Shown piece by piece: positions 21,209 through 39,300 of a DNA stretch of 64,000 bases. The position numbers and the translations under genes are program-made. Under the pieces are notes generated by a model. That model was not told the DNA's origin, ran no database searches, and saw only the letters and a list, made by a program, of their open reading frames with translations. Origin of the DNA: an uncultured Candidatus Saccharibacteria bacterium (GTDB lineage Bacteria; Patescibacteriota; Minisyncoccia; Phycocordibacterales; UBA12445); assembly GCA_964531375.1 (NCBI GenBank), contig CAZHDO010000003.1, forward strand, positions 17,983-81,982. The letters are read 5' to 3'. How positions within the stretch are numbered: position 1 is the first letter of the stretch; each line of letters starts with the position of its first letter.

Positions 21209-22285
21209 TTAGATTTTAAACTCAATTACATCCCCATCTTTTACAATATATTCTTTACCTTCAGTCCTAAGTAATCCTTTTTCCCTAGCAACTCCAAACG
21301 AGCCTGAATCTAATAAATCTTGCCAATTTATTACATCAGCGCGAATAAATTTTTCTCTAAAATCTGTATGTATCGCTGTCCCAGCTTCTGGGGCAGGAGA
21401 ATTTCTTTTTGTAGTCCACGCACGAGTTTCATCTTCCCCTGTCGTAAGAAAAGTTATTAAATCTAAAATCTCATAACCCTTTTTTATAAGATCATTTATT
21501 CCGTCGTCTTTTACTTCAAGAGCCTTTCTGTATTCATTCTTTTCATCTCCTTCGAAAGCTGAAAGTTCCTGTTCGATAGCCGCATCTACAACAACATGAC
21601 TTGCCCCAGAACTTTCGAAGAACTTAATTAGATCGCTTGTATCCACTAGCTTGCTCCCGCTCTTGCTATTTAAAACATAAAGAATCGGCTTCATAGTTAA
21701 TAAATGAAGTGACTTTACGATTTTCTTTTCCTCGTCTGTAAAAATTAAAGTACTTGCTAATTGTCCTGCTTCAAGAACTTTTTGAAGTCTTTGTAAAATT
21801 TCATTCTCAATAATTGCAACTTTATCTCCCCTTCTTAGATCTTTACCAACATTAACAATCCTTTTGGAAACAGTTTCCATATCCGCAAGAATAAGTTCAA
21901 GATTTATCACCTCAATATCACTCATTGGATTTGGTTTACCAGAAACGTGAATTATATTTTCATCTTCAAAAATTCTCACAACCTCAGCAATAGCATCCAC
22001 TTCACGAATATTTGAAAGGAATTTATTTCCAAGCCCCTCGCCACTCGCTGCGCCTTTTACAAGTCCTGCGATATCTACGAATTCTATTGCTGTCGGAACT
22101 GTTTTTTTTGAATTTGAGAATTTCGTCAATTTATCCAACCTCTCATCTGGTACAGCCACCACACCAACAGATGGATCTATTGTGCAAAATGGATAATTTT
22201 CCGCAGGCACACACTTTTTTGTAAGAGCATTGAAAAGCGTTGATTTTCCAACATTTGGTAACCCGACAATTCCTATACTGAGCAC
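21209..22285 (-). CDS. ychF: Ribosome-binding ATPase YchF (Obg-family GTPase)
   Basis: It has a GTG start, a G1 motif IGIVGLPNVGKSTLFNALT, and a C-terminal TGS domain (GDVIEFKI). Confidence 0.9.
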   Translation of the reverse strand: MLSIGIVGLPNVGKSTLFNALTKKCVPAENYPFCTIDPSVGVVAVPDERLDKLTKFSNSKKTVPTAIEFVDIAGLVKGAASGEGLGNKFLSNIREVDAIAEVVRIFEDENIIHVSGKPNPMSDIEVINLELILADMETVSKRIVNVGKDLRRGDKVAIIENEILQRLQKVLEAGQLASTLIFTDEEKKIVKSLHLLTMKPILYVLNSKSGSKLVDTSDLIKFFESSGASHVVVDAAIEQELSAFEGDEKNEYRKALEVKDDGINDLIKKGYEILDLITFLTTGEDETRAWTTKRNSPAPEAGTAIHTDFREKFIRADVINWQDLLDSGSFGVAREKGLLRTEGKEYIVKDGDVIEFKI

Positions 22286-23916
22286 GCAAGTTGATGTTAT
22301 TTAATAAAAAAGGAGACAGATTGAGGGCACCGACTGAAGGAGGTATCCATCCATAAGATTCCGGAACGGGAATGAAACCAGATACCTGAATTATTTCCTT
22401 GTTGCCTACTACTCTATCTACAACGCTTTTAACTATGCCTTGTTTTCTCTCGAAATTCAAGCCATCGCCAAATCTCATCTTTGTGTCCAGAGCCAATGCT
22501 TCTATTTGTTTGATATCAGGAAATATTACATCATCAGGCATTTGTGATTCTTGTTTCGACTTCAGTATTTGATTATTAATCGACGACATTCTTTCTCTTA
22601 CCGGATCAACATACTTTTTATATTTATCTATATCCAACAAACCAGCCCCGAATAATTTAGTATATCGATCTTCTTCTTTTCCTAATTTATTTATCTCTTT
22701 CTTTAACGCTTCAACATTTACTGAGATAGTTTTAATCATTGATGGTCTCTCGTTTTTCCATCGCTCAAGATGCCACTTCATCAACTCCGGAGAAGTTAAG
22801 ATATTTTCAAGTTCTCTCCATACTTTTTTATCCGCCACCATCGCATTAATACTTCCCTCTTCACAAGTTGAAGGCAGAGGATATTTATAAATCCTATCGT
22901 TACATCGATAATAAAGATTTGTACCTTTCTTAGGACCGGCGCCGGATCTAGTACAACCGCAAGGACAATGTACTTTTTTTGAGAGAAGATATTCATATTT
23001 AGTACATCTATTAGAATTAATTTTATTAATCTGTAATTTTGCCTGAACACGATCAAACAATTCTTTATCAATAACTTTTATCGTTGGAATTTGAATCCAC
23101 TTATCTTCCGGATGAAACTTTCTGCTAGTCTTCTTTATCTTCTTATACTTTTCCTTCTTGATAGGATTAACCGGTTCAACCGCATAAGAAGCACCGAAAT
23201 GACTTTCTCCAATATATGACTTGTTTCTTAATAATGTAATGAGGGTACTTGTATTCCAAACGCCACGCTTACTTTTGCGAGGAGGGATTCCCAATTCTTG
23301 AAGCTTCTTCACAAGCCCTCTTATGGTACATCCCTCATCAGCCAACGCAAAAATCTTTCGTAAAGTATCTATCTCGTTTGGATTAATTTCATAAAAACCC
23401 TCTTTTTCTTTCGTCCTTAAAACAAAGGTCAAACCGTAAGGAGCTTCAGAAGTAATTATATGTCCCTCTCTGGCTTTTCTTAATTTTCCAATTCTACAAC
23501 GCTCAGCTATCTTTTTTCTTTCATATTCCGCAAAGACACCCCTAACCCCCATCATCAACCTGTCCTCATTGTTTTTTGACGGAGGCATAGTGACAAAGAG
23601 AGGCTCAATACCTAACATTCTCAATTCATCCATTACCAATTCTTGATAATAGTAACGCCTCGCCAGCCTATCATAAAACGGCGTCCCACATCTTCTTCTG
23701 AGCATCTAAACGAAGCTGATCAAGCTGTGGTCTTTCTAGAGTATCTCCGCTCCAACCCTCATCTTCATATACCTGAACAACCTCATATCCTTTGTCTTTG
23801 ATAAAATCATTCATCGCATCAATCTGGGTCTTTATAGTCTGCTCTTCTTCCTGACGGGCAGTAGAAACTCTGGCGTAAGTGGCAATTATTTTAATTTCTT
23901 TTCCTATGTTTTCCAT
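22143..23916 (-). pseudogene. Large serine recombinase (integrase) split by a frameshift: an 81-aa N-terminal ORF (23671-23916) and a 520-aa ORF (22143-23705) in different frames
   Basis: The N-terminal ORF carries the catalytic motif TYARVSTARQ. The 520-aa ORF continues with the resolvase core YDRLARR, a recombinase domain and a zinc ribbon (CPCGC...YYRCN). The frames switch at a T4 run near 23685-23700. The 3' tail of the ORF overlaps the ychF start by 143 nt. Confidence 0.7.
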
Positions 23917-26634: not shown

Positions 26635-27177
26635 TTATAAATTCCTTAATTCCGGATCGATATACGGAATTCCTAACATCTCAAAGAGGTCCTCTTCTTC
26701 TCTTACTTCATATTCATTAAGGACACCTTCTTCATCTTCTCTGGTCAAATATCCATCAACGCTTTTATACCCTCTCCTACACCAACCATTAGCCAATACT
26801 TTATGGCTATAATTGGAGGACCCAGTTCTGAGGGCAAAAGTTAATCCCCATCTATCTTCTTCGGTGAAAAATAAATCCAGAGCTATTCCTTCAGGCAACA
26901 TCCTTTGGGAATATCTACAGGGAAGCTCTCCTCTCACCTTTTCCCACCTATTAATAACCGAGGCTATTCCACTTTCGAATAATCCTATTTCATACGGTTT
27001 TGGAATCGCTACTATTTCTATATCACCGACCAAAGGCTTTTTTCTTCTTATACTTCCCGCAATTTCTGCTCTAATACAATGAGGACGGAGTAAATCCAAC
27101 ACCCTCAAAGCTATCTCATGAGCTTCCTCATAAGGGAACCTTTTTTCTACTTCATTCTTTTCTTCTTCTTTATTCAT
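26635..27177 (-). CDS. Minimal Pol X-family (Pol beta-like) nucleotidyltransferase, 180 aa
   Basis: The palm signature IAGSIRRKKPLVGDIEIVAIP matches the GS-x(9-13)-D-x-D/E pattern. The C-terminal MLGIPYIDPELRN resembles the conserved LGLPYIEPELRE of Pol X. The size is comparable to the smallest viral Pol X enzymes. Confidence 0.55.
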   Translation of the reverse strand: MNKEEEKNEVEKRFPYEEAHEIALRVLDLLRPHCIRAEIAGSIRRKKPLVGDIEIVAIPKPYEIGLFESGIASVINRWEKVRGELPCRYSQRMLPEGIALDLFFTEEDRWGLTFALRTGSSNYSHKVLANGWCRRGYKSVDGYLTREDEEGVLNEYEVREEEDLFEMLGIPYIDPELRNL

Positions 27178-27369
27178 CTTAAATATTTTTAACTATTAAT
27201 CTTCCTTCTTCTTTAATAATTCTTAAAAAATCTTTTCCAACATCTATTAATGATGCCAACCGAGAAAAATCATTTCTAAAACAAAAAAGTACCTTATTCA
27301 GGTACATATAATTATTACATTGGTCTTTTTTAGAACTTGAAATTCTAAACAATTCTGGACAATTCCAGG

Positions 27370-28221
27370 CTATTTTGGGCTATTTCTTTTATGGGCGGAT
27401 ACTAGTTGCTCTATCAGCATATCGATATCTATTCCATTTTTTCGCAATTCTTCAACAGACACCTCTCTTCTAAAAAGAATATCTCTCTTGTTGCTTCTTT
27501 TTGGAAAAAAAGCTTTCAGTATCTGACCCTTGAATCCGAGACCATTTAACATATTTATAACTCTCTTGCTTTTTATTTCTTTCTTTATTTCCTGAGGAAG
27601 CTTTGCCAACTCAAGTTTCTCACCAGCATTGTCGTATAGATATTCAAAAAAAGTCATATTCTTTCCTGATGAATGCGGATAGCTAAGTAGACAGCCATTG
27701 ATCCAAATACCTCGTTCTTCTGTCGATACTTCAAATACTTTTGGAATATTGTAACCGGATGAATTCTTGCTTAATATTACTTCTGGTTTGTTGTCCGGTT
27801 CTCTAACAATAATGTTTTTATTATTTTCCATTTCCTCTTTGGCGACAAAAACAAGTTCTTTATATTTCACCTCAAAATCCTCTGCTAACTTTCGCAGATC
27901 TTCTTCATTTTTTCTAAATTCCGCAAAACGATTTTCTAGTTTAAGTTCCTCGTTCTTTTGATTAGAAAATTTGTAATGCTCTAAAAGAAAATCTCGTAAC
28001 GCATTAAAAGATTCGTTAAAAACTTTCCATGTGGAATTTATCTTAGAATCTGAGAACTGGGATAATATTTCACTTGACCAACTATCGTATTCTTGGAACA
28101 TCGCTAAATATCTTTCCACGGACTTTCCACTGGATAAAATCCGGATCAAGAATAATTCCACCTTCTGTTCTGGCAGTAGCTTTATAAATTTATTAAATCT
28201 TTCTTTATCTTCTAATATCAT
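27370..28221 (-). CDS. Hypothetical protein (283 aa); the last gene of the 13-gene block
   Basis: ORF only. It lies 12 nt downstream of the preceding gene. Confidence 0.4.
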   Translation of the reverse strand: MILEDKERFNKFIKLLPEQKVELFLIRILSSGKSVERYLAMFQEYDSWSSEILSQFSDSKINSTWKVFNESFNALRDFLLEHYKFSNQKNEELKLENRFAEFRKNEEDLRKLAEDFEVKYKELVFVAKEEMENNKNIIVREPDNKPEVILSKNSSGYNIPKVFEVSTEERGIWINGCLLSYPHSSGKNMTFFEYLYDNAGEKLELAKLPQEIKKEIKSKRVINMLNGLGFKGQILKAFFPKRSNKRDILFRREVSVEELRKNGIDIDMLIEQLVSAHKRNSPK

Positions 28222-28233
28222 GCATTTTTACTT

Positions 28234-28653
28234 TTACATCAACATTATTTCTGCAGTGCTCAATTCATCTTCTGCTTTTCTTTTGGCATCGATTGTATCC
28301 CAATTCAATAAGTGAATAGCTTCTACTAGCTCCGGGCGCATTCTCCAGTGTATAGCAGCCTCCTCAGGAAAATCAGCGAGAAAAGATACATTATAATTAG
28401 GATTCGGTAATTGATAATTCATCTGTTCGGCTATCTTTCCGGCTAATTTGCCGTATGGTAAGTTGGCATTAGAACCTCCAATTTTCCAACCCATTGCAGC
28501 TCCCATTATTTTAGAAGTAATTGTGTTGTCTGGAGAGAAATAATTCAATAGCAACATCCATCTTTCTTTATCTGTTAGAGGATTTTTCTTAAAATATTCA
28601 ACGAAGTCATTTACTGTTGGATAAGTTTTATTTCCTAATTCTTCTGATGTCAT
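28234..28653 (-). CDS. Hypothetical protein (139 aa)
   Basis: ORF only. It lies 7 nt downstream of the DUF2779-like gene. Confidence 0.4.
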   Translation of the reverse strand: MTSEELGNKTYPTVNDFVEYFKKNPLTDKERWMLLLNYFSPDNTITSKIMGAAMGWKIGGSNANLPYGKLAGKIAEQMNYQLPNPNYNVSFLADFPEEAAIHWRMRPELVEAIHLLNWDTIDAKRKAEDELSTAEIMLM

Positions 28654-28660: not shown

Positions 28661-30160
28661 TTATTTATTATTAATCACCTCATTAAGTATCCTAAATATC
28701 TCAACCATAACAAATGTATCTTGTTTACAATATTCTTTAATCAGATATATTTTATTTGCTCGGTCTTTTGGCTCTTCTCCTTTATTAACAATATCTCCCC
28801 ACCAGACGAAACCTACATCATTACCAGTATATGGCAGATGGTCATAGGACATCTTGGGAAGTAATACGGTCATTACTGATTCTATCCCAGAACTACCTCC
28901 GAAATCTTTGTGGACATAATGCTGTTTTGAGAATACATCTCGAAGATCTTTCATTTGACGACAGATTCTGTTTAGGACTTTTTCGTATTTTGGAAGTCTA
29001 AGTCCGATCTCTTTGGTGACACCCTTCTCAAACGAAACATTCCAGGCAAGTACCGTACCCTTAGGGTCAACAATCTTTTCCAGTAGTTTTGCAACTGCTT
29101 CAGATGGGTCCGAATTCTCTTCGTGGAGATAATCTACATGGCGCAGTGGTCCGCCTTTCTGATCGATAATGTGCATTGAGAATTGAATAGGAATTCTTTG
29201 GTATGGTCTGAATCCAGAATATGCAGGTACTGCTGGGGCAAAGGTTTCGTAATCGAAGAAATAAAGAGGGTAAGTATATTCATCTAAAATATATGAGATC
29301 TCTTTCCTATCTATTATTTCTTCTTCTGTTTTGTGGGTATGAATTTGATTCTTTTGTGTCTCGGTAAAACCCTTGGTATCTGCTATCTCGTGCAAATGAT
29401 AAATACCATCTTTCACAAGCTTGGTCAGTTTTTTAGAAGTGATACGAGACAAATCGTGAATAGAATATTCCGGGAACTCCGGATGGGATATCTCGAAGGT
29501 GGCACAGTGACTTCTTCGTCCATAATAATGACAATCACATCCGACTGCCGGCTCTTTCGTTTGGTTCAGATATTCTTTAGCCTCTTCCATTTGTTTAGCA
29601 GTAGGAGCTTTCTTTGCAGAGACTTGATCGGTACTATCGTCAATTATAAAAAGCTTCTTAATATCTATCTCCCCATCACGAACATATTTATTATTTATAT
29701 GAACAATGAATTTTTTACCTATATCAATACCTGCCCGTTCCAAAACAATTACCTGAAAGGCAAGATCTGAAATATGATCTCTTGGCCCATCGTCATCTTT
29801 TTTTGAGCTCGAAGCTTTTACTTCATAGATATCCCATTTTTTAGTTTCAGAATTCCAAACAAGAAAATCACAACGGATTATATATCCATCAGCAACAAAT
29901 GTCGGCTGATAAATGGCCGGCACTTTTTGCGCCATAAGTTGCTCTATCTCTTTTGATGCCGAAAAATCATGATTCTTAACTTCAACGAAACCGGGAAATA
30001 ATCCCTTCGCATATTCCTCTACTGTATTCCCTTGATCCATTATATTCTGTTGCGACAGGGGTACTTCAAACTGTTCTAGTTCAGGTCTATTTAATCTAAA
30101 CCAAGCGTCCTTTGGACACATAAGATACTCAAGAAATCTGGATTTAGATATAAGTTTCAT
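28661..30160 (-). CDS. DUF2779-like nuclease: Cas4/RecB-type PD-(D/E)xK domain with Fe-S cysteines plus a C-terminal DEDD-like 3'-5' exonuclease region
   Basis: The N-terminus MKLISKSRFLEYLMCPKDAW is the DUF2779 hallmark. DGYIIRCDFLV...WDIYEVK gives the PD-(D/E)xK motif. CDCHYYGRRSHC together with the N-terminal Cys gives a 4-Cys cluster. FFDYETF is an Exo I-like DxE motif, and YCKQDTFVM is a Y-x4-D Exo III-like motif. Confidence 0.6.
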   Translation of the reverse strand: MKLISKSRFLEYLMCPKDAWFRLNRPELEQFEVPLSQQNIMDQGNTVEEYAKGLFPGFVEVKNHDFSASKEIEQLMAQKVPAIYQPTFVADGYIIRCDFLVWNSETKKWDIYEVKASSSKKDDDGPRDHISDLAFQVIVLERAGIDIGKKFIVHINNKYVRDGEIDIKKLFIIDDSTDQVSAKKAPTAKQMEEAKEYLNQTKEPAVGCDCHYYGRRSHCATFEISHPEFPEYSIHDLSRITSKKLTKLVKDGIYHLHEIADTKGFTETQKNQIHTHKTEEEIIDRKEISYILDEYTYPLYFFDYETFAPAVPAYSGFRPYQRIPIQFSMHIIDQKGGPLRHVDYLHEENSDPSEAVAKLLEKIVDPKGTVLAWNVSFEKGVTKEIGLRLPKYEKVLNRICRQMKDLRDVFSKQHYVHKDFGGSSGIESVMTVLLPKMSYDHLPYTGNDVGFVWWGDIVNKGEEPKDRANKIYLIKEYCKQDTFVMVEIFRILNEVINNK

Positions 30161-30163
30161 AAG

Positions 30164-31279
30164 CTATTTATCCCCATCATTTACCAACTTCGAAGTGACG
30201 GAGAGATTTTCAAGTTGTGCAATTCGTTCTTCTAATTTTTTGATTACTTCCTTGTCTTGTAAGATTATGCCCTTACTGGACAATTCTCTTACCTGCTTGT
30301 ACTTGTCATCAATTTCTTTTTCAAGCCTTTCGTTCGCCCTAAGAACTGAGTCGACCAATCTGAGTGTTAAATCATCCAAAACCTGACCATTTTCTCTTTT
30401 TGATTTATCTAACTCCTGTTTCGCTTTATCCTTTTCCGTACGATTTTTCTTTCCATCAATAAGTTTCCATTGGGCATACAGCACTACCAATCCCCCAAAA
30501 ATACCGCCGACTGCATTAGCAATAATTGGTGTATCGTTTGCTGTCCGCCATGCCGATTTCATATAATCAACAACATGGTATTTATCCCACAGATCAAATA
30601 TTATTTGTGGATCAAGATGCTGAAAAAAAGTGAGATCGATTGGTGACTTGCTTGTTATCTCACTTATGGATGTATACTTTTGTAAGTTTAAATCAAGATT
30701 TCTAGAATTTCTCATCCTAACTGTACGATATACACTTTTACTCAGGTCGTGGTAGTTACCATTTTCGTCGTACCTATCATCTCCTATTTTCGATGATTTA
30801 AATTTTGTGAGACTAATGCTGAGTTTAGATGCGTATTTAGTTCCAACCACACCTATTACACGTTCAACTTCAGGATGTTTTTTAAGAAATGGTTTAAATC
30901 TTTCTTCTATTTCACCTACATTCAGTGTTGCTTCTATCAAAACAAAAAAGATGTCGTTTTCAAACAACTCAGAAAGACCGTGTTCCTCAACCATCTTTCG
31001 ATATTCTCTTGCATGAAGATAACCTTTTTTCTTTGCGAACGATTCATTTAATTTACTAAATTTAGGTATCCCTTCACTAAGAATTTTTTCCAATAAAGTC
31101 TCCTTGTCTATCTTTATGGCAACAAAAAAGAGCAAAACATAAAATTGCATGTCTGCTTTTGTGGAATTTGCGATAGTATCTTTATAGAGAAAATTTACAA
31201 CCTCATCACGTAAATTAAGTAAGGAGAGATCTTTTAATCCCTTATCCTTTTCTTTAATTTTTACTTCTATCTTTTTCAT
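30164..31279 (-). CDS. Membrane-anchored coiled-coil protein (371 aa)
   Basis: It has a single TM helix (IIANAVGGIFGGLVVLY) followed by a long coiled-coil. Its start overlaps the Res stop (ATGA). Confidence 0.45.
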   Translation of the reverse strand: MKKIEVKIKEKDKGLKDLSLLNLRDEVVNFLYKDTIANSTKADMQFYVLLFFVAIKIDKETLLEKILSEGIPKFSKLNESFAKKKGYLHAREYRKMVEEHGLSELFENDIFFVLIEATLNVGEIEERFKPFLKKHPEVERVIGVVGTKYASKLSISLTKFKSSKIGDDRYDENGNYHDLSKSVYRTVRMRNSRNLDLNLQKYTSISEITSKSPIDLTFFQHLDPQIIFDLWDKYHVVDYMKSAWRTANDTPIIANAVGGIFGGLVVLYAQWKLIDGKKNRTEKDKAKQELDKSKRENGQVLDDLTLRLVDSVLRANERLEKEIDDKYKQVRELSSKGIILQDKEVIKKLEERIAQLENLSVTSKLVNDGDK

Positions 31280-34182
31280 ACATTCAGTAATACTGATACT
31301 GTAGAGCTAACTGTTATTTTTTCTGTTGGGACAATCACGTATCGCCACGGTTTTGCTATTCCATATTTACCAACATTCTTTGAAACTAACTCGCAATACT
31401 TATCTGCTGTTTTCTTTTTCTCTTGTATATCTAGATTGCCTATCTCCCCACTTGTTTTTACTTCAACCATTACAATTTCATTTTCAAATTCAACTATAAA
31501 ATCTGGCTCGTAGCGGTGTTGTGAATTGCCAAATTCGTCACGCCAATATAGTCCTTCAAATTGATTTGGGGCAGGTCGAAGCCAGTCTTCAACTGAACCA
31601 TCCCTGTCTAATAAATAAGCCAAACGTGCTTCGTCAGAGGAATCGAAACGATACATTGAGTGACAGGCCTTACTAAACCCCGTATAAATTCTATCTCTCG
31701 AAAAGCGATCAAATTGGGATTCTAGTGTGACAGGTTTCTCGTCAAAACTTCGGGAAATATTGTACTGTTCCAAATATGGTTTTGGTTCACGAATACCAGA
31801 CTCCAAATAGCCCTCGGACTTAAAATGTTTGTGATCCAATATTTGAGCGTATATTTCATTAGCTATTTGGCGTGTATTATTTTCTACCATCATCTTGAGG
31901 GTATTAACATCAGCCGTAAAAGATCTGTAGTATGTAGTCGCTTGTTTTGAAAGCTTGATCAACAATTCTTTCTGTTCATCGTAATCGATGAGAGGATGAT
32001 CGGAGTCAACTAAAACAGAAATGATCGTATTTTCAGGACTCTGAGCCCGACCCTCACCAAGACTCGATACGCGAGTAACTTCAGTCTCCCTACGTCCTTG
32101 ATGGGCAACACCAAATAAATCTTTTTCTTCTTTCCCCTGCAACGACTGCTCGAGTATTGAAGCTTCCGTAGCAAATCTACTTAATTTCTTTATATCCAAA
32201 TTAAAATCATCTATAACAAGCTCTCCATAGTGAGGTGTGAGCATTAACCTTGGAATAGGGATGTTACGAATCTCAATAGTTTCTTTAGAAATACGTCCGA
32301 TGCTCTCAAGCTCTTTTTTAGCAGGCTCACTTAAAATATTAAACAGTGAACTCTCTTCATATACAGTGCCACCAGTCTGCCCAACTCCTATTTTTCTTGC
32401 CTCATTCTTTGCGGTTATCTCCACAATTTCATTTACCTTATTTTGTATCGTTGCCACCTTAACATCCTCCGGGGTGTCTTCTCCTATAACAGCACTGACT
32501 GTTTTTGTCGCTTGCTCTTGGATTTCCTGCATTATCACCGGACTAGCCTTAATTTGATCCTGTATGCTTGTTACGAATGCCGACTGAACCTCAATAATTT
32601 CTTTTACTACTTTTGTATCATCAGTTGAAATACTTTCAATATTTGTTGGTTGAATAAGCTTAGAGTTGCGTGCTTCTTCAATAACTTTCGCGTAATTGTC
32701 ATGGGCAACAATCATCACACGATCTACTTTTTTGTTTCCAGTTTTTTCCCCGTATGGTAGACGGAGACCTCGGCCAATTGTTTGTTCAGTTAAAATCTGT
32801 GCAGCCGAAGATCGTATTGGTGCAATGGTATAAATATTAGAAACATCCCAACCCTCCTTAAGCATGTTCACGTGGATAACAATTTCTACAATATTATCAG
32901 GATGTTCAAGTGATATTAATTTTTCAATCGTTTCATCTGCTTCATCTCCCCTTGTTTTTGTATGAACCTCAATCACCCTTCCCTTATAGACACCGCCCCT
33001 AAAATCATCACTATCAATTAGTTTACGGAGCGCGCTGGCGTGGGCTGTATCTTTGGCTACTACAAGCATCACGGGCTTCACCTCCTGCTTATCATTTTCG
33101 AGCGCATAATCTTTTAAAGCTAACTTTGCTCGTTCGTGGAAAAAAGCGGCGAGCTGTAATTTACGAGCGTCTGTTTCTATAGATTCAGCGTCCAAATGAC
33201 TAAAATCGACATCAGCTTCCGTGCCAATCCATGGATCTTTCACATACCCATCACGAATAGCATCACCGAGATTATAGACATAGAAGATGTTTTTCTTGAG
33301 AACAAGTTCCGCACCCCTCCTTGTAGTAGTTGGGGCAAGATATGGCGTAGCGGTAAATTCAAGTCCAAATAACGGATCAATACGGTCAAGAGAACTCATT
33401 GCAGCATCGGCGTGATAGTGATGCGATTCATCCATCAACACAACCAGATCATCGAGTGACGCTAGGTGATCAAAGTAAGATAAAAGCCTCCCGTCTTCTA
33501 CTCCAAAAATTTCCGAACCTTTTGTAATACCCTTTTCCTTTTCTATATCTTTTTGTGCAAACTGCTGAATATTAAAAATATTTATTTCAATCTTATTTGC
33601 AAAGAGTTGTGCCGTTCGGCTTTGCACGTAGTTTTCTTTAATGATAATTTTTACATTTGAAGTAGTAAGTTCTTCAATCCCACGGAAAACATATTTGGGA
33701 TTATTGGCTTTGCTAAAATCATCTACCAGTTTACGGTAGATGGTATTACCCGGAGCAACAATCAAAAAATGTTGAACGCCATAAACAAGATAGAGATATG
33801 TCACAAAAGCACCCATGAGACGAGTTTTTCCCACACCAGTGGCAAGAGCGAAAGTATATGCTGGAAAGGTTCGTTCAAAAGCCTGAAATTGCTTCAATCC
33901 AGGGATTGTGTGCGTGTATTCTTTTGTCGCTTCTTCGATATCACTAACACTCCCACGGTTCCCCCTCTTCATTCTTGCTAATACTTTTTTACCAGCATCC
34001 CCCTCTAGAAAATCAGCGAAAAAATGCAAACTTTTTTCTTGCGGAGTTCGCAGGCTCATTGTGTTAGTTATATATTGTAGGGCTTGTTCTTTTTTCATAT
34101 TATTATTCATCAGAATCACTTTCTTCTTCAATTTCTTCCATTGCCCGCTCTTTAATAGGAAGTAGATACTCTTTCTTTCCAA
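31276..34182 (-). CDS. res: Type III restriction enzyme Res subunit (SF2 helicase plus C-terminal PD-(D/E)xK endonuclease)
   Basis: It has a motif I ATGVGKT, a motif II LMDESHH, and a C-terminal YEPDFIVEF...VMVEVK nuclease motif. The likely true start is the ATG at 34110 or 34098, overlapping or abutting the Mod stop. At about 940 aa it is typical of Type III Res. Confidence 0.75.
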   Translation of the reverse strand: MERKSIYFLLKSGQWKKLKKKVILMNNNMKKEQALQYITNTMSLRTPQEKSLHFFADFLEGDAGKKVLARMKRGNRGSVSDIEEATKEYTHTIPGLKQFQAFERTFPAYTFALATGVGKTRLMGAFVTYLYLVYGVQHFLIVAPGNTIYRKLVDDFSKANNPKYVFRGIEELTTSNVKIIIKENYVQSRTAQLFANKIEINIFNIQQFAQKDIEKEKGITKGSEIFGVEDGRLLSYFDHLASLDDLVVLMDESHHYHADAAMSSLDRIDPLFGLEFTATPYLAPTTTRRGAELVLKKNIFYVYNLGDAIRDGYVKDPWIGTEADVDFSHLDAESIETDARKLQLAAFFHERAKLALKDYALENDKQEVKPVMLVVAKDTAHASALRKLIDSDDFRGGVYKGRVIEVHTKTRGDEADETIEKLISLEHPDNIVEIVIHVNMLKEGWDVSNIYTIAPIRSSAAQILTEQTIGRGLRLPYGEKTGNKKVDRVMIVAHDNYAKVIEEARNSKLIQPTNIESISTDDTKVVKEIIEVQSAFVTSIQDQIKASPVIMQEIQEQATKTVSAVIGEDTPEDVKVATIQNKVNEIVEITAKNEARKIGVGQTGGTVYEESSLFNILSEPAKKELESIGRISKETIEIRNIPIPRLMLTPHYGELVIDDFNLDIKKLSRFATEASILEQSLQGKEEKDLFGVAHQGRRETEVTRVSSLGEGRAQSPENTIISVLVDSDHPLIDYDEQKELLIKLSKQATTYYRSFTADVNTLKMMVENNTRQIANEIYAQILDHKHFKSEGYLESGIREPKPYLEQYNISRSFDEKPVTLESQFDRFSRDRIYTGFSKACHSMYRFDSSDEARLAYLLDRDGSVEDWLRPAPNQFEGLYWRDEFGNSQHRYEPDFIVEFENEIVMVEVKTSGEIGNLDIQEKKKTADKYCELVSKNVGKYGIAKPWRYVIVPTEKITVSSTVSVLLNV

Positions 34183-35800
34183 ATTGGCACGCTTTCAAAA
34201 TTGACTGTGGTATTTTCTTAATAGTTATACGACCATCCACCTTTTCACATCCAGGTTCAAATTTCTTTGGACAAATAAGTAACGTCTCGTTGAAACCTAA
34301 ATGGCTCACAATCTGTTGGACCATCGCTACAGATAACATTTGTGTAGTTATATAAATACTATTGTTGCCTTGGCCCTTGCCATGTTTCCGATAATCAGAC
34401 GGACTTGGAGCGAACGTGTAGTTGGTAAGCTTACACATAGCGCGAATAAGCTTAGTGTCATTGTAATAGCTATCAATCACAGGATTACCAAATTCATCAA
34501 TTACTACAAAGCTTGGCGCCAGCTCGTAAAACTTAAATCCACCTCCTCCGTGCCAATTCACAGCTTCGCTGATTCCATTAGGATCTTCGGCGTCAACGAC
34601 TGCCTTCATTCGTTTATGCACGTGCGAATAAGCGTGATCTCCCATTTCTATCCCAATATAATTAAAATTCATTTTATGAGCTACTGCCGTTGTTGTGCCT
34701 GAGCCAAGAAACGAATCCAGAATCCAATCCTTACTAGACAAATTTGCTATTTCAAAAAAAGTCTTAATAAGCGATTCTGGTTTTTTAGAGTTTCGAAATT
34801 CAACCACACCTTCATATCCAACACGGTTGAAAGCTGCAGAAGCATCAAAAAAGGATGGATACGGAAGTTCTTTTGACGAAATTCGTGTTTGGGGTACTCC
34901 TTGAAAATAATTACCATTTTTCTTTTTAATATTTTCTGGTGAAAGAAAATATCTGTGGCCAGTTCCGTCATCTCCCATATTAGGGACCTCGTACAAAACA
35001 TTATGACCATCACTTTGAAGTCGTCCTTCAATATGAGCAACATAAAATCTACCACTACTGTTTCCTTCTCTTAACCCACCTCGAATATTAATCTTCTTAA
35101 GTCCAGTTTTATTTCCATCTGAACGGGTTAATTCATACTCACCAAATTTAAAAACATGACACTCCTTATTTCCCAGCAGAAGTTTTTCTCCGGCTCCAAT
35201 TGTTTTTACAGTCCATTCATAACCTTCATACGGATCAGCCGTGACCAACTGTTTTCTTTTTGAAATATTAAATTGATTTGTTTTTTGATAACAGTGTACA
35301 TATTCAGCGACATCGTGAATATCTTTGTCTCCCTTCAACATTCGCTCTGAGTGTCTAACTTTTATAATAAACGACGTAATAAAATTGTTTCTTTGGAAAA
35401 CTTCATCTAATAGGACTTTCAGATATGCTTGCTCTCCATTATCAATTTGTACAAAAATTACCCCATCATCCTTCAAAAGCATTCTTAACAACTCCAATCT
35501 AGGCCTCATAAGTGAGAGCCAAGTACTATGTTCCACACTGTCATCATAATGTTCAAAAGCATTACCGGTATTGTATGGGGGGTCAATATAAATGCATTTT
35601 ACTTTTCCTTCATACTCAGGAAGAAGCGCTTTTAGAGCGAGTAGATTGTCACCATGAATAATCATATTCTCCGTATCTTTGTCGCCATAGGACAAATCAG
35701 TTCGTTCTTCCAAAATGCGTGGTTCAATGTTAGCAATATCATACTCAGGATTATTCTTCCCGATCCATGTAAGCTCTAGTTTTTGTTTGTTGTTTGACAT
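34103..35800 (-). CDS. mod: Type III R-M Mod subunit (beta-class N6-adenine / N4-cytosine DNA methyltransferase)
   Basis: Motif IV IYIDPPYNTG precedes motif I LDSFLGSGTT, which is the beta-class permutation. The gene lies immediately upstream of, and is coupled to, res. Confidence 0.8.
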   Translation of the reverse strand: MSNNKQKLELTWIGKNNPEYDIANIEPRILEERTDLSYGDKDTENMIIHGDNLLALKALLPEYEGKVKCIYIDPPYNTGNAFEHYDDSVEHSTWLSLMRPRLELLRMLLKDDGVIFVQIDNGEQAYLKVLLDEVFQRNNFITSFIIKVRHSERMLKGDKDIHDVAEYVHCYQKTNQFNISKRKQLVTADPYEGYEWTVKTIGAGEKLLLGNKECHVFKFGEYELTRSDGNKTGLKKINIRGGLREGNSSGRFYVAHIEGRLQSDGHNVLYEVPNMGDDGTGHRYFLSPENIKKKNGNYFQGVPQTRISSKELPYPSFFDASAAFNRVGYEGVVEFRNSKKPESLIKTFFEIANLSSKDWILDSFLGSGTTTAVAHKMNFNYIGIEMGDHAYSHVHKRMKAVVDAEDPNGISEAVNWHGGGGFKFYELAPSFVVIDEFGNPVIDSYYNDTKLIRAMCKLTNYTFAPSPSDYRKHGKGQGNNSIYITTQMLSVAMVQQIVSHLGFNETLLICPKKFEPGCEKVDGRITIKKIPQSILKACQFGKKEYLLPIKERAMEEIEEESDSDE

Positions 35801-35808: not shown

Positions 35809-36387
35809 TTATTTTAGATGTGGACGAAGGAATATCTCGATTTCTTTTATAGCACCATCTACCTTTTTTGAAAACTCATCATTAACTCCAATGTTATATA
35901 TAATACTATCAGTACTATCACTAGAGCGTCCATCTAAATATAAACTTAGTCCGCTATATAGCTCTCTTACTAATGCATCTAGATTTAATTGTGCTTTCGT
36001 TGCCTCAGACCCCCATGATACTTCTGCTTCAAGTAATTCGGCTTCAAGATTTGTCCAAGCTTCTCTCACTTTATTCCATCGAACTGAATATACAGCCCTA
36101 TTCATCTTTTGATTGTCACTATATTCCTCTGCTTTAAATCCATTAACCTCAAGAGCCGACTGCATTTCGCCCAATGGAATGAAGGGGTTTCTCACAAATT
36201 TTATAGCATCTCTTAATTTTAGAGAGGCCTTTAGATACTTTCTGGCAATCTCGTAGTTTGTTTTTCCCATCATCTGCTTCCTCCACCCAACTAATCCAAA
36301 AATGGCAACCCCAGCTACAATAACAGCAGATATAGATGTTATAGAATTTGCGACAGTATTAAATATGATTTCTGTACTTGTAGACAT
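35809..36387 (-). CDS. Small membrane protein (192 aa) with an N-terminal TM helix and a helical C-terminal domain
   Basis: It has a TM segment SITSISAVIVAGVAIFGLVGW. It lies 2 nt after the SNF2 stop and 8 nt before the mod start. Confidence 0.45.
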   Translation of the reverse strand: MSTSTEIIFNTVANSITSISAVIVAGVAIFGLVGWRKQMMGKTNYEIARKYLKASLKLRDAIKFVRNPFIPLGEMQSALEVNGFKAEEYSDNQKMNRAVYSVRWNKVREAWTNLEAELLEAEVSWGSEATKAQLNLDALVRELYSGLSLYLDGRSSDSTDSIIYNIGVNDEFSKKVDGAIKEIEIFLRPHLK

Positions 36388-36389: not shown

Positions 36390-39300
36390 CTATATTATCT
36401 TCCAGCTTATGGTGAATAATATTTCTAACTTCGATCTTTGTTTTAACTGAGCCTCTACTTTCTTCAACAAATCCTCTTTTTTTAATTCAACCTCATCCTG
36501 TGCCTCGTATAATTTTCTACGCATTTCATTTCTTTTTTTCTCAGAATCCTTTATTTCCCGTTGAGCTTTAAGTTTATCATCAAGGTCAATAATTTTCTTA
36601 GCATTTGTCTTGGCTGCCTTAATATCAATATCAAGCTTTCTCAAATCAAGTTCGAGAGCTTTCTTTACATCTTCTGACCAATTATCCAGTTTATCCACTT
36701 CGTCATCAAAAAATTCTGCATTCCTTTGCATAATTTGTCCTGAAATTACCGAGATATTTTGATTTTCAAGCTCTTCTATTTTTTTGCGTGCCTCAGGTGA
36801 AAATATTTTTGGTGTAACCGACTGTGCAGAAAGTGAAAATAACTTTTTTATACTGTCCGATTCGATTGACTCCCCTGTTTCATTAATAGCAGACACAACG
36901 ACAGCATCTTCTGATTCAAAAGCTTCAACTGTATAATTTGAGACTTTTAACATTCCGCTTTTACCAACCAGTGGTTCTAGTACAGAAATAATTGATGAGT
37001 GATTTGAGTAATCAAAAACAATCTCTGCTTCATCAACTTGTTTGTTTTTTACTTCATTCAAAATCCTCTGTGCTAAAGAGTGTCCGGGGCGATACACGTG
37101 AGCATCTTCTACATTTTTACCGATTTTATATGGACCCTGATCGATATCCTCGTTTGGAAATGGATTGGTTTTAAGAGAAAAAGAATATTCGTGATCGGAA
37201 AAATCAGCATTATCACCCAAATAGTAACGAGTAACATCCCACAACCAGCGATTATATGTGTCCAAATAGGCTTCGCCTTCTTTTTTATTGATCTTTAATT
37301 TTTCATGCACCTCCGCATCGAAATTTTCTAAGAGCTTCTGTCGAGTGTCGGATAAGTTACTTTTTATACTCTCGTCCATTTCTTCCTGAAGTTTATCAAA
37401 GGCAATATTGATGTCTTCAGACGTTCTGCATGTTTGATAAATACCGGCTATGCGTTTTTCGAAATCGACACCGGACTCAATAGATCCTAACACTTCATCA
37501 CTCGCACCGAACACACCTTTAAACAATTTGAATTTCTGATCCAACAGTTCATATACACGCTGGTCTGCTGCGTTTTTTCTATTAACAAAGTTGATTACGA
37601 CGACATCGTGTTTCTGACCATAGCGATGACAGCGACCAATACGTTGTTCAATTCTTTGTGGATTCCACGGTAAATCATAGTTAATTACCAAAGAACAAAA
37701 TTGTAAATTAACACCCTCAGCTCCCGCCTCAGTGGCGATCATAATTTCTGCTTCATCTCTAAAATATTCAATGAGTGCCGCTCGAGTATCAGCTGTTTTT
37801 GAACCAGTTACTTTGTCAGTGTCCTTATTTCTTGCAAGCCAACTTTTATATATCTCTTTTGATTTTTCATCGTTATTTGAACCGTTAAACAAAACAATTT
37901 TATCCTTATATCCATTATTAGCGAGGAGGGTCTCAGCAAGATATCGTTGTGTGATAGTAGATTCAGTGAAAATTATAGCTTTCTTTTTAGCACCCAACTC
38001 AGCAGTCATCTCAAATCCTTTTTTTAGTGCAGTAATTAAGGCATCTCCTTTGGAGTTCGTGTATATTTTCTGCGCGAGATTACGGAATTTTTCCAGATCA
38101 GCTTTTTCCTGCTCCATGAGTACAATATCTTTCTCTGTGAGAGCTTTCTTTTCCTTCTCATCTTCATCGTCTTCGCTCTCCTCATCATCAATCCATTCAT
38201 CTGATATTTCTGGAAGAGCTTCGAAATCTTGAAGGAGCGAAATAGTACCATCATCTTGTTGTGGTATTTTTGCTTTTGTGTCCACGATCAACTGCCTGAG
38301 CTTATATACCAGCTTATCTAATGTACTAGCGATAGCGAAGGAAGACGATGCCAAAAGCTTTCTCAAGATGAGTGTCATGAGCTGACGCTGACTAAAAGGT
38401 AAAGCGTAGAGCTTTGCCCGCTGAAGATACTCGGACATACCATCATAAAGTTGAACTTCCTGTTCGGTTGGAATATAGTCTTGCGTTATTGGTTTTCGCT
38501 CTGTGTAATTGATATATTCTAGTACTTGGCGACGGAGTGTACGGATACAAACAGGTTTTAGGCGATTGCGTAAATCAACGAACATTTCCTGTTTGGGCTC
38601 AAGAAGACCAACTTCGTTTTCATATATATCTTGCTCACGGGAAACTCTTGCATAATTTGCTTTAAAACTTTTAAGATCCCCGAATACATGATCATCAATA
38701 ATACTAACAAGTCCATAAAGTTCGAGAAGGGAGTTTTGTAATGGGGTCGCAGTAAGTAAAATTTTCGGTACTTCTTCTAATGCTTTCTTTATCTCTTGCG
38801 CAATTTTATTGCTTTTTTTATATACATTGCGTAAACGATGTGCTTCATCAATAACCGCTAAATCCCATTTTGTTTGTTTTATATATGAAGATTTAGATCG
38901 AGCAAAGTGATAAGAACAAATAATTATTTTGTCTTCTTGATTAAATGGATTCAGGTTTCCGTCTTTTATATATTGATTAAAAGATTTTGCCTCAAGAATT
39001 ATCGAAGGTAAAAAGAATTTCTCCGAAAGTTCATCGTTCCATTGTTTTCGTAAGCTCGAAGGGACAATCAAAAGAATACTCCTCTTTCTCTCAGCCCATT
39101 TTTGAGAAAGAACTAACCCGGCCTCAATAGTTTTTCCAAGACCAACCTCATCAGCTAAAATTGCGCCCTTCGAAAGCGGTGAGCGAAAAGCAAAAAGGGC
39201 CGCCTCAATTTGGTGTGGGTTTAGGTCTACTTGAGCATTAGATAGTGTAGAAGAAAGTTTTTCCAAACTATTGGAAGAACATCGTTTTGTCAGCTCATAA

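What the first reader, a model, noticed from the sequence alone, without database searches (positions are those of the whole stretch)
28661..30160. DUF2779-like protein combining a RecB/Cas4-type nuclease with Fe-S cysteines and a DEDD-like exonuclease signature
The N-terminal 120 aa carry the MxLSKSxFxxxxxCPK start and a D...DIYEVK PD-(D/E)xK core. The spacing of CDCHYYGRRSHC plus Cys15 is like the Cas4/AddB 4Fe-4S cluster. The C-terminal half has FDYET (Exo I-like DxE), plus Y-x4-D and other acidic motifs consistent with a DnaQ-fold 3'-5' exonuclease. It lies directly downstream of the Type III res gene and a TM coiled-coil protein. It could process the DNA ends generated by restriction, with a RecBCD/AddAB-like or Cas4-like role.
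Basis: partly seen in the sequence, partly recalled or inferred. Interest (0 to 1): 0.6.

Follow-up and report, generated by a model that had tools for sequence, protein, structure and literature searches.

The report
Two-nuclease protein riding on restriction operons
This gene encodes a known but untested type of protein that joins two DNA-cutting enzymes, and here and in many other bacteria it is the last gene of mobile restriction and defence operons, which suggests it finishes off DNA that those systems have cut.

Summary
The 499-aa ORF at 28661-30160 (-) is real and is a clear DUF2779/PF11074 member (E 1.6e-37).

- **N-terminal half:** a Cas4/RecB-type PD-(D/E)xK nuclease (D98, E113-x-K115) with one N-terminal and three downstream cysteines.
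- **C-terminal half:** a DnaQ-like DEDDy 3'-5' exonuclease (D303, E305, E378, Y477-x3-D481, all invariant in 93 distant homologs).

Two details were wrong. The cysteine spacing is C-x-C-x8-C, not the canonical Cas4/AddB C-x2-C-x5-C. ExoIII is Y-x3-D, not Y-x4-D.

The two-nuclease architecture is already published (Majorek 2014; an mSphere 2026 paper on MMSYN1_0389), so the gene is a new member of a known, biochemically untested family.

What I add is context. In 84 non-redundant homolog loci:
- All 9 Type III Res genes lie co-directionally one or two genes upstream of DUF2779.
- 7 of 8 Hhe-like helicase-nucleases lie directly upstream.
- Other upstream partners are SNF2, GmrSD and Type IIG genes.
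- Other clades sit in conserved housekeeping synteny.

Most likely role (inferred, not shown): a motor-less, dual-polarity end-degrading accessory of helicase-nuclease defence effectors.

The parts
28661..30160 (-). DUF2779-family gene, 499 aa: a fusion of two nuclease domains
   Evidence: ORF. Pfam PF11074 E 1.6e-37. 811 close and 6643 representative homologs, mostly matching full length.
29561..30160 (-). N-terminal Cas4/RecB-like PD-(D/E)xK nuclease domain (aa 1-200). Catalytic D98, E113, K115; Q136; C15 codon at 30116-30118.
   Evidence: PADLOC Cas4 E 1.2e-7. Pfam Cas_Cas4 and TIGR00372 fall below their cut-offs. Foldseek finds Cas4 4r5q, MGME1 and AddB. Residues conserved in 93 homologs.
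29504..29539 (-). Cysteine triad C208-x-C210-x8-C219. With C15 it forms the putative Fe-S or metal 'staple'.
   Evidence: Invariant in 33 close homologs. The 1+3 Cys set is kept in about 80% of 93 distant ones, with two spacing types. Metal content not testable here.
28664..29269 (-). C-terminal DnaQ-like DEDDy 3'-5' exonuclease domain (aa 298-499). ExoI D303/E305, ExoII E378, ExoIII Y477-x3-D481, plus D405.
   Evidence: All are invariant except D405, which is present in 92 of 93. Strand and helix order b1-b2-b3-aA-b4-aB-b5-aC, with the motifs in the expected elements. Foldseek.
30164..31279 (-). 371-aa protein with one hydrophobic segment and a coiled-coil-like tail. No family. Sits between Res and DUF2779.
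   Evidence: No Pfam, NCBIfam or PADLOC hit. No homolog in the 91 related loci fetched by then (L001-L091). The same position holds unrelated small genes in L016, L041 and L062.
31276..34182 (-). Type III restriction subunit Res (968 aa)
   Evidence: PADLOC REase_III E 3.7e-130. Pfam ResIII plus a C-terminal TnsA-like PD-(D/E)xK.
34103..35800 (-). Type III methyltransferase Mod (565 aa)
   Evidence: PADLOC MTase_III E 2.1e-130. Pfam N6_N4_Mtase.
35809..36387 (-). 192-aa protein with no family. It sits in the position held by DUF4391 in L016.
   Evidence: No Pfam hit at E<=10. No similarity to DUF4391 proteins.
36390..39419 (-). SNF2 helicase, DrmD-like, first gene of the co-directional block
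   Evidence: Pfam SNF2-rel_dom and Helicase_C. PADLOC DrmD PDLC02619 E 1.2e-210. The public gene call starts 28 codons later.
27370..28653 (-). Two unknown genes (139 aa and 283 aa) directly downstream, with gaps of 7 and 12 nt. Probably the end of the same transcription unit.
   Evidence: ORFs. No family. No homologs in related loci.
27289..27305 (-). Terminator-like hairpin plus T-run just after the 283-aa gene
   Evidence: Consensus scan only. The region as a whole is not enriched for such sites (12 found against 8.4 expected).
22143..23916 (-). Large serine recombinase, split into 81-aa and 520-aa ORFs, at the ychF-proximal end of the island
   Evidence: Pfam Resolvase, Recombinase and Zn_ribbon_recom. 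Split in two assemblies. Serine recombinases lie near DUF2779 in 15 of the 91 loci fetched by then plus the window (duplicate loci included).

Best explanation
**Shown.** The gene encodes a DUF2779-family protein made of two apparently intact nuclease domains.
- The first is a Cas4/RecB-type PD-(D/E)xK nuclease stapled by one N-terminal and three downstream cysteines.
- The second is a DnaQ-fold DEDDy 3'-5' exonuclease.
- The protein has no helicase or ATPase domain.
- It is the sixth gene of a tightly spaced co-directional block: SNF2 (DrmD-like), 192 aa, Type III Mod, Type III Res, 371 aa, DUF2779, 139 aa, 283 aa.
- This block lies on an island that ends in a serine recombinase next to ychF.

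**Inferred.** DUF2779 here is a portable, motor-less accessory nuclease of DNA-targeting defence effectors. The partner (here Type III Res/Mod, perhaps with the SNF2 helicase) nicks or cuts foreign DNA and supplies translocation or unwinding. The Cas4-like domain would then degrade from 5' ends and the DEDDy domain from 3' ends. The broken DNA could therefore not be repaired or recombined. This is the job RecBCD or AddAB does after restriction in bacteria that have those enzymes.

In other clades of the family (syntenic CPR clades and Mollicutes), the same enzyme probably serves general DNA end processing.
For: **Domain identity.**, plus published HHpred and classification for the family (PMC3985635; PMC13621843, read).

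**Operon-like spacing.** Gaps of 3, -4, about -8, 8 and 2 nt.

**Recurrent order in 84 non-redundant homolog loci.**
- All 9 Type III Res genes within +/-10 kb are at position -1 or -2 and co-directional.
- 7 of 8 Hhe/PDC-S37-like helicase-nucleases are at -1.
- Both large SNF2 genes that are not part of a Mod-Res block (L039, L065; about 1240 aa) are at -1.
- GmrSD is at -1 and at -3.
- Type IIG-like genes are 3-5 genes upstream in four loci, and 10 genes upstream in L017.
- Most gaps between a -1 defence gene and DUF2779 are under 25 nt (read from the coordinates).

**The window's own order recurs.** SNF2-(small)-Mod-Res-(x)-DUF2779 appears in L016 and L018, although the Res genes belong to different subfamilies.

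**Type III Mod-Res-DUF2779 in distant organisms.** L011 (45% identity; neighbouring branches in the NJ tree are Hyphomicrobiaceae and Bradyrhizobium loci), L062, and L133 on a conjugative element.

**Fusion proteins.**
- DUF4391+DUF2779 directly after an SNF2 gene, in a Mod-containing operon.
- DUF2779+DUF2726/MTES_1575 REase domain, directly after Mod-Res.

**Independent set of distant homologs.** On IMG/VR contigs at 24-37% identity, the neighbours are again N6_N4_Mtase, ResIII, GmrSD, AAA_15/21/OLD, WYL and UvrD.

**Flanks differ between loci**, so the gene moves with the defence cargo rather than marking a fixed insertion site.
Against: - No activity, metal content or phenotype has been measured for any family member. 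Polarity, substrate and the link to restriction are all inferred.
- About a third of the loci sit in conserved housekeeping synteny with no defence genes. The Mycoplasma homolog is quasi-essential without phage (PMC13621843). The family therefore has a non-defence role somewhere.
- The +1 genes also include defence genes: SIR2 twice, a Type IIG enzyme, AbiEi, PDC-S05 and PDC-S23, and a GajB-like protein. Part of the signal is simply that these are defence islands.
- The loci are not phylogenetically independent, and my defence labels were seeded from upstream examples.
- The partner changes (Res, Hhe, SNF2, GmrSD, IIG), which argues against a specific protein-protein complex.
- PADLOC has no system containing this protein.
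- That CPR bacteria lack RecBCD/AddAB is my recollection. It was not tested here.
Confidence: 0.5

Rival explanations
1. Housekeeping DNA end-processing or repair nuclease. It would stand in for AddAB, RecJ or ExoI in small genomes, and here it merely lies beside a defence island.
For: - Two large CPR clades keep DUF2779 in conserved, vertically inherited synteny with no defence genes. The neighbours include DinB, cupin, a cation ATPase, DAGK, NUDIX and RluA-like genes.
- The Mycoplasma homolog is quasi-essential in a phage-free minimal cell (PMC13621843).
- UvrD helicase lies just downstream in L003 and L005.
Against: - For this gene and its clade (at least 57% identity), 9 of 11 loci have RM-type genes co-directionally upstream, within 10 genes, with different flanks in each locus.
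- 9 of 9 Res genes and 7 of 8 Hhe-like genes lie in fixed polar positions.
- The gene sits on serine-recombinase islands and a conjugative element.
Confidence: 0.25
2. A nuclease that serves the mobile element itself. It would act in recombination, replication or end processing of the integrative or conjugative element, or attack competing DNA, in the way some virus and plasmid Cas4-like or RecE-like exonucleases do.
For: - In the window the gene sits at the junction between the RM block and a replication/recombination module: a DnaA/DnaC-like ATPase, a Pol-beta-like protein, a resolvase and a large serine recombinase.
- Serine recombinases lie near DUF2779 in 15 of the 91 loci fetched by then plus the window.
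- About 30 full-length homologs lie on IMG/VR contigs.
- MGE-borne Cas4 genes are known (PMC5704561).
Against: - The constant neighbour is the defence effector upstream, not the replication or recombinase genes. Those vary in distance, side and strand.
- Neighbours on the IMG/VR contigs are defence genes, not phage replication or structural genes.
Confidence: 0.15
3. A Cas4-like trimming enzyme that produces defined DNA fragments for another immune pathway, such as spacer-like capture or guide generation, rather than degrading DNA in bulk.
For: Cas4 homology of the N-domain. DEDDh exonucleases trim prespacers in some CRISPR systems (title and abstract of 10.1101/2023.01.23.522648, listed).
Against: - No cas1, cas2 or Argonaute genes appear among the annotated neighbours in the window or in any locus examined.
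- The partners are restriction-type effectors.
Confidence: 0.05

Closest known systems
DUF2779 / PF11074 family (RNase H-like clade F.17 of Majorek et al. 2014; MMSYN1_0389 of JCVI-syn3.0; NCBIfam UU173 family)
   Same: - Same family by HMM (E 1.6e-37).
- Same two-domain architecture: Cas4-like/DUF83 plus a DEDD-type exonuclease with Tyr as the fifth residue.
- Same conserved D/E/K triad and acidic residues.
   Different: - The window protein is much shorter (499 aa against more than 650 aa for the Mollicutes form). It matches UU173_fam only weakly (34.8 bits against a cut-off of 225).
- It keeps all four cysteines, whereas MMSYN1_0389 keeps two.
- It sits in a mobile Type III RM operon, not a core-genome site.
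- No member has been studied biochemically.
Cas4 (Pcal_0546 4R5Q, SSO0001 4IC1) and the AddB / MGME1 nuclease domains
   Same: - PD-(D/E)xK core with D...ExK.
- One N-terminal and three C-terminal cysteines around the core.
- Best structural matches of the N-domain.
   Different: - Below the Pfam and TIGRFAM Cas4 cut-offs.
- Cysteine spacing is C-x-C-x8-C rather than C-x2-C-x5-C.
- The upstream His of Cas4 aligns to a conserved Gly (G44), as described for the family.
- There is no cas1/cas2 context.
- It is fused to a second nuclease.
DEDDy/DEDDh 3'-5' exonucleases (Klenow exo domain, DnaQ, MrfB, ERI2, YprB/PF13482)
   Same: - Motifs in the same order: ExoI (FDYET, compared with FDTET), ExoII (N-x2-F-E, compared with N-x2-F-D) and ExoIII (Y-x3-D).
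- The motifs fall on the same secondary-structure elements.
- RNase H-like fold.
   Different: - Glu replaces Asp in ExoII.
- There is an extra near-invariant D405 and a family-specific G-S-x-S-I-K loop.
- No sequence-level hit to Pfam RNase_T or DNA_pol_A_exo1, or to PDB sequences.
UvrD-Cas4-like fusion proteins encoded next to Type III Mod/Res (Hudaiberdiev et al. 2017, PMC5704561)
   Same: A Cas4-like nuclease recurrently encoded beside Type III RM genes and read as an uncharacterised defence or repair partner.
   Different: - That is a different Cas4-like family (pfam12705).
- It is fused to an SF1 helicase, not to a DEDD exonuclease.
- DUF2779 has no motor of its own.
RecBCD / AddAB degradation of restricted DNA
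   Same: The proposed role is the same: destroying linear DNA from the ends made by restriction. AddB has the same kind of Fe-S-stapled nuclease.
   Different: - There is no helicase in the polypeptide.
- The second nuclease is DnaQ-fold rather than a second RecB-type domain.
- There is no Chi-type control known.
- This is functional analogy only, and untested.

Membership tests
DUF2779 (PF11074) | Match to the family HMM above the gathering score | tested here: met
   129 bits against 23.3, aa 300-424 covering profile positions 1-125 of 126.
DUF2779 (PF11074) | Full-length two-domain architecture shared with family members | tested here: met
   Most of the best 150 of 6643 representatives match aa 1-495 end to end. 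Alignments A1 and A2.
Cas4 (PF01930 / TIGR00372) | HMM match above the curated cut-off | tested here: not met
   PF01930 scores 17.5 bits against 22.7. TIGR00372 scores 23.2 against 65. PADLOC Cas4 models match at E 1.2e-7 to 8e-4. It is related to Cas4 but is not a Cas4 family member.
Cas4 / RecB-type nuclease | PD-(D/E)xK catalytic residues (D, ExK) conserved | tested here: met
   D98 in 92 of 93, E113 in 90 of 93, K115 in 91 of 93.
Cas4 / AddB Fe-S nuclease | Four cysteines, one N-terminal plus C-x2-C-x5-C, binding an Fe-S cluster | tested here: inconclusive
   The 1+3 cysteines are conserved in about 80% of homologs. The spacing is C-x-C-x8-C or C-x5-C-x5-C. Metal binding is not testable here.
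Cas4 (CRISPR-associated) | Encoded beside cas1/cas2 or a CRISPR array | tested here: not met
   No cas families among the annotated genes of the window or of the loci examined.
DEDD (DnaQ-like) 3'-5' exonuclease | ExoI (DxE), ExoII (D) and ExoIII (Y/H-x3-4-D) motifs in order | tested here: met
   D303/E305, E378 (Glu in place of Asp) and Y477-x3-D481 are invariant in 93 sequences.
DEDD (DnaQ-like) 3'-5' exonuclease | RNase H-like fold of the exonuclease type | tested here: met
   C-domain model pLDDT 93.7. BFVD hits: DEDDh exonuclease E 4e-4, PolA/PolB exo domains, YprB, DnaQ, and a top hit at TM 0.63. PDB hits are all RNase H-like but weak, at E >= 0.008.
DEDD (DnaQ-like) 3'-5' exonuclease | Sequence-profile match to RNase_T, DNA_pol_A_exo1 or PDB exonucleases | tested here: not met
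   Only DUF2779 is found at E<=10 on the C-terminal half. No PDB sequence hit with a single sequence or with a profile. Published HHpred for a family member reports MrfB at E 5e-7 (PMC13621843).
DEDD exonuclease / Cas4 nuclease | Measured nuclease activity and polarity | not testable with these tools
   No biochemical data were found for any DUF2779 protein in the library searched.
Type III restriction-modification system (neighbouring genes) | Adjacent Mod (N6/N4 MTase) and Res (SF2 ATPase plus PD-(D/E)xK endonuclease) | tested here: met
   PADLOC MTase_III at E 2.1e-130 and REase_III at E 3.7e-130. The genes overlap.
AddAB / RecBCD-type helicase-nuclease | SF1 helicase motor in the same protein or complex | tested here: not met
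   No ATPase or helicase domain in the 499-aa protein. Motors are present only in neighbouring genes.

The most novel reading that the evidence does not exclude
DUF2779 is a free-standing 'end-destroyer' module that mobile defence islands carry along with whatever helicase-nuclease effector they encode (Type III RM, Hhe, SNF2/DrmD-like, GmrSD or Type IIG). It would give lineages with reduced repair machinery, such as CPR bacteria, a portable substitute for RecBCD/AddAB-type degradation of restricted DNA. That would make it a shared accessory common to several otherwise unrelated defence systems, and one that current defence-system catalogues do not list.
Probability: 0.35. Interest if true: 0.6.

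Novelty: new member of a known kind. Interest (0 to 1): 0.4.

Why it matters
The domain reading itself is not new. What could matter is the gene order. A widespread two-nuclease protein (more than 6,600 clusters at 50% identity) that nobody has characterised repeatedly closes the operons of very different DNA-targeting defence systems. It is sometimes fused to their components.

If it completes the destruction of cut DNA, that would explain how small-genome bacteria turn a single restriction cut into loss of the invader. It would add an accessory gene to Type III RM and Hhe-type systems. It would also give a concrete hypothesis for a quasi-essential gene of the minimal cell JCVI-syn3.0.

The idea can be tested directly with a cloned operon and simple nuclease assays.

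Tried and rejected
**Searches that found nothing or could not run**
- PDB sequence searches with the protein and with a 33-sequence profile gave nothing relevant.
- Pfam at E<=10 on the isolated C-terminal half found only DUF2779.
Only ExoI aligned, and power was low because the templates were single sequences.
- phmmer with those two sequences against all 1494 ORFs of the loci found no DEDD exonuclease from which to build a template.
- Model coordinates are not exposed, so I could not measure Cys-Cys or acid-acid distances.
- The literature searches for DUF4391 and for Patescibacteria with RecBCD/AddAB were uninformative. The claim that CPR bacteria lack these enzymes therefore stays unverified.

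**Ideas considered and rejected**
- The window's 192-aa gene is not detectably a divergent DUF4391.
- DUF2779 as a fixed chromosomal anchor beside an insertion hot spot: rejected because both flanks differ between island-type loci.
- A CRISPR link: rejected because no cas genes are anywhere nearby.
- Internal terminator-like and promoter-like hits inside the gene: treated as chance, since the region shows no excess over shuffles.
Full report

Yes. A 499-aa ORF occupies 28661-30160 on the minus strand. The identical protein is called in an NCBI MAG (GCA_037130235.1, contig JBAXTJ010000004.1) and in an independent Logan assembly.

- K6 and C15 in the MKLISKSRFLEYLMCPK start
- D98 and E113-V-K115
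- C208-D-C210-x8-C219
- FDYET (D303, E305)
- WNVSFE (E378)
- EYCKQD (Y477, D481)

Pfam places aa 300-424 in DUF2779/PF11074 at E 1.6e-37.

In 33 homologs at 45-70% identity, all four cysteines and all catalytic residues are invariant. In 93 cluster representatives at 27-46% identity, D303, E305, E378, Y477, C478 and D481 remain invariant. D98, E113, K115, Q136, C15 and C210 are at 90% or more, D405 is in 92 of 93, and C219 is at 88%.

- ExoIII is Y-x3-D (the DEDDy form), not Y-x4-D.
- The cysteine spacing is C-x-C-x8-C. A second form, C-x5-C-x5-C, occurs in 22 of the 93. Neither is the canonical Cas4/AddB C-x2-C-x5-C, so only the 'one N-terminal plus three downstream' arrangement is shared.

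**2. What is the protein?**

*N-terminal half.*
- The curated Cas4 models miss their cut-offs (PF01930 17.5 against 22.7 bits; TIGR00372 23.2 against 65).
- Four PADLOC Cas4 models match, the best at E 1.2e-7 over aa 3-206.
- The AF2 model of the whole protein is confident (pLDDT 91.8, pTM 0.87).
- Its best PDB matches are Cas4 Pcal_0546 (4r5q, E 1.4e-3, probability 1.0), human MGME1 and AddB (3u44_B). All are PD-(D/E)xK exonucleases of the RecB/Cas4 type.

*C-terminal half.*
- No sequence method tied it to a named exonuclease family.
- The element order in the model is b1 (D303, E305), b2, b3, aA, b4, aB (E378 at its start), b5 (D405), then a long C-terminal helix carrying Y477 and D481. That is the DnaQ-fold layout, with the Exo motifs where they belong.
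- A separate model of aa 284-499 (pLDDT 93.7) found only RNase H-like folds in the PDB. The statistics were weak. The best global fits were the exonuclease-type members Maelstrom MAEL, ERI2 and a family-B polymerase exo domain (TM 0.42-0.44).
- Against viral predicted structures the signal is clearer: E 9e-6 (TM 0.63) for an uncharacterised giant-virus protein, E 4e-4 for a 'DEDDh 3'-5' exonuclease', then exo domains of phage PolA/PolB, YprB (E 2e-3) and DnaQ (E 9e-3).

**3. This is already in the literature.**
- Majorek et al. 2014 placed PF11074 in the 3'-5' exonuclease clade of the RNase H-like superfamily as family F.17. They noted its co-occurrence with DUF83, a Cas4-like PD-(D/E)xK domain (PMC3985635).
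- A 2026 mSphere paper describes the quasi-essential JCVI-syn3.0 gene MMSYN1_0389, a PF11074 member, as a Cas4-like nuclease fused to a DEDD nuclease with Tyr in the 'h' position. HHpred hits were 7MID at 2e-6 and MrfB 8UN9 at 5e-7. Only two of the four cysteines are kept there (PMC13621843).
- I found no biochemical study of any member.

The family is large: 6643 representatives at the 50% cluster level, most of them full-length two-domain matches.

**4. Surroundings in the window.**

The gene is part of a tight co-directional block on the minus strand:
- SNF2 helicase (36390-39419; PADLOC DrmD E 1.2e-210)
- a 192-aa protein with no family
- Type III Mod (PADLOC E 2.1e-130)
- Type III Res (E 3.7e-130, with a C-terminal PD-(D/E)xK domain)
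- a 371-aa protein with one hydrophobic segment and no family
- DUF2779
- two unknown genes of 139 and 283 aa

Gaps run from -80 to +12 nt as listed. The -80 reflects an upstream TTG start listed for Res. A terminator-like hairpin follows the last gene, but that is a consensus match only.

Upstream lie further defence-type genes: DUF2326/PDC-M68B, a SMEK-domain protein and a ClpP-like SDH protease.

Downstream is a replication/recombination module ending in a split large serine recombinase next to ychF.

The region therefore looks like a mobile defence island.

**5. Is the link to restriction more than position in one genome?**

I fetched 80 loci from one-genome-per-species contigs, plus loci for individual homologs. 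I called ORFs, clustered them and labelled them with seeds, Pfam and PADLOC.

In 84 non-redundant loci, with about 15 other genes each:
- All 9 Type III Res genes within +/-10 kb are co-directional and at position -1 or -2.
- 7 of 8 Hhe/PDC-S37-like proteins are at -1. These are about 1600 aa and combine DUF4011, an SF1 helicase and an MTES_1575 Vsr-like nuclease.
- The two large SNF2 genes that are not part of a Mod-Res block (L039, L065; about 1240 aa) are at -1.
- GmrSD is at -1 and -3. A PDC-S06/AAA_13 ATPase is at -1.
- Type IIG-like genes are 3-5 genes upstream in four loci. In L017 the gene is 10 genes upstream.
- Counting any labelled defence gene, 15 of 82 loci have one at -1 and 23 have one within three genes upstream. 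With the same labels, the figures downstream are 0 and 1.

An unbiased PADLOC scan of the +1 genes does find some defence genes: SIR2 twice, a Type IIG enzyme, AbiEi, PDC-S05, PDC-S23 and a GajB-like protein. These loci are therefore defence islands on both sides. The polar, tightly spaced position behind a helicase-nuclease effector is the specific feature. Gaps are mostly under 25 nt.

The window's own order, SNF2-(small)-Mod-Res-(x)-DUF2779, recurs in L016 and L018. This holds even though L016's Res belongs to another PADLOC subfamily, and the small genes differ (DUF4391 and an HSDR_N/NucS-like nuclease in L016).

Mod-Res-DUF2779 also occurs at 45% identity in L011, which has a serine recombinase nearby, and in L062.

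An NJ tree separates two vertically inherited, syntenic 'housekeeping' clades from clades in which nearly every locus is of the island type. In the island clades the partner systems are mixed.

**6. Fusion proteins.**

Among the longer representatives:
- P0145 is DUF4391+DUF2779. It is encoded directly after an SNF2 helicase, in an operon with a Mod-type methylase and Schlafen-like ATPases.
- P0133 is DUF2779 plus a C-terminal DUF2726/MTES_1575 nuclease domain. It is encoded 4 nt after a Type III Mod-Res pair on a conjugative element.

These fusions tie the module to components of the same kinds of systems that precede it elsewhere.

A further independent sample consists of homologs at 24-37% identity on IMG/VR contigs. 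Their neighbours within two genes are led by N6_N4_Mtase, ResIII, GmrSD_N, AAA_15/AAA_21/OLD-TOPRIM, WYL and UvrD. Phage structural or replication genes do not lead the list.

**7. How it most likely works.**

*Shown:*
- There are two intact-looking nuclease active sites and no motor.
- The gene sits at the end of operons whose products are ATP-driven DNA translocases and nucleases.
- The module is mobile.

*Inferred:*
- After the partner cuts or nicks foreign DNA, and possibly unwinds it, the Cas4-like domain attacks 5' ends. I take that polarity from characterised Cas4 and AddB enzymes (PMC5704561).
- The DEDDy domain attacks 3' ends. Together they would turn a repairable break into degradation. 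This is the role RecBCD/AddAB plays after restriction in bacteria that have those enzymes.
- The changing partners argue for a general end-degrading accessory rather than a subunit of one system.
- The housekeeping clades and the quasi-essential Mycoplasma gene suggest the ancestral job is general DNA end processing.

I put about 0.5 on this combined reading. The domain assignments alone rate about 0.9. The rivals are a housekeeping repair enzyme that only neighbours the island (0.25), a nuclease serving the mobile element (0.15), and a Cas4-style trimming role for another pathway (0.05).

**8. Comparison and novelty.**
- It is a member of DUF2779 (membership tests met).
- It is related to Cas4 but is not a Cas4 family member. 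The curated cut-offs are not met, there is no cas context, and the cysteine spacing differs.
- It works like a DEDDy exonuclease by motif and fold but matches no curated exonuclease HMM.
- The nearest published parallel for the context is the UvrD-Cas4-like fusion found beside Type III Mod/Res genes, together with the remark that solo Cas4 genes of small-genome organisms sit near RM systems (PMC5704561). That is a different Cas4-like family.
- I found no report of the DUF2779 association with defence operons in the library searched. That is absence in a limited library, not proof of novelty.

**Verdict.** The gene is a new member of a known, uncharacterised family. The recurrent operon position and the fusions are a modest, testable addition.

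Noticed in passing
window 22143-23916 (-): The large serine recombinase at the island end is split into an 81-aa ORF carrying the catalytic Ser region and a 520-aa ORF in another frame. The same split appears in an NCBI MAG and a Logan assembly. It may be a real frameshift or pseudogene, which would mean the island is now fixed in place.
   Followed up: partly
window 35809-39419 (-); L016:57-8833; L018:397-7835; L132:2744-12151: A recurring block: a DrmD-like SNF2 helicase, a small protein, then Type III Mod and Res. The small protein is DUF4391 in L016 and is fused to DUF2779 in L132. In the window it is an unrelated 192-aa protein with a hydrophobic N-terminus. The block resembles neither a plain Type III RM system nor DISARM (no DrmA/DrmB seen).
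   Followed up: partly
window 39480-43606: More defence-type genes lie upstream: DUF2326 (PADLOC PDC-M68B, E 8e-57), a SMEK-domain protein (matches the N-terminal part of an Argonaute-associated REase model, E 4e-43), and a ClpP-like SDH protease on the opposite strand.
   Followed up: partly
window 24294-27177 (-): Replication/recombination module of the element: a Pol-beta-like protein matching only the 'thumb' (180 aa), a small resolvase-domain protein (163 aa), a 298-aa protein with no family, and a DnaA/DnaC-like ATPase (221 aa).
   Followed up: no
window 28661-30160 (-), aa 422-427: The near-invariant family loop G-S-x-S-I-K (S425 and K427 in 91 of 93 representatives) reads G-S-S-G-I-E in the window protein. 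All homologs at 57% identity or more have Glu at 427. This is a clade-specific charge reversal in a conserved loop of the exonuclease domain.
   Followed up: no
L025:722-5623, L045:5191-9987, L042:6466-9990 and relatives: Hhe/PDC-S37-like giant proteins (DUF4011, SF1 helicase and an MTES_1575 Vsr-like nuclease; 1170-1630 aa) are followed within a few nucleotides by DUF2779 in seven CPR genomes. A serine recombinase often lies just upstream, on the opposite strand.
   Followed up: partly
L003:12132-14777, L005:9614-12289: A UvrD-type helicase is encoded immediately or a few genes downstream of DUF2779 in two close homolog loci. The pairing of a helicase with a Cas4-like nuclease recalls AddAB.
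   Followed up: no
L092-L122 (IMG/VR contigs): Contigs classed as viral that carry DUF2779 homologs have RM, GmrSD, OLD/AAA_15, WYL and UvrD genes beside them rather than phage genes. Some may be defence islands or other mobile elements rather than viruses.
   Followed up: partly
window 20321-20851 (+): A 176-aa predicted lipoprotein-like protein with a long Pro-Thr repeat (TPTPTPTPTPTPAPTPVPTPTPTPAP). It is one of the few plus-strand genes in this part of the window.
   Followed up: no
window 1-64000: GC skew is negative across almost the whole window and nearly all long ORFs are on the minus strand. This is consistent with strong co-orientation of genes with replication. GC content is 32-40%.
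   Followed up: no
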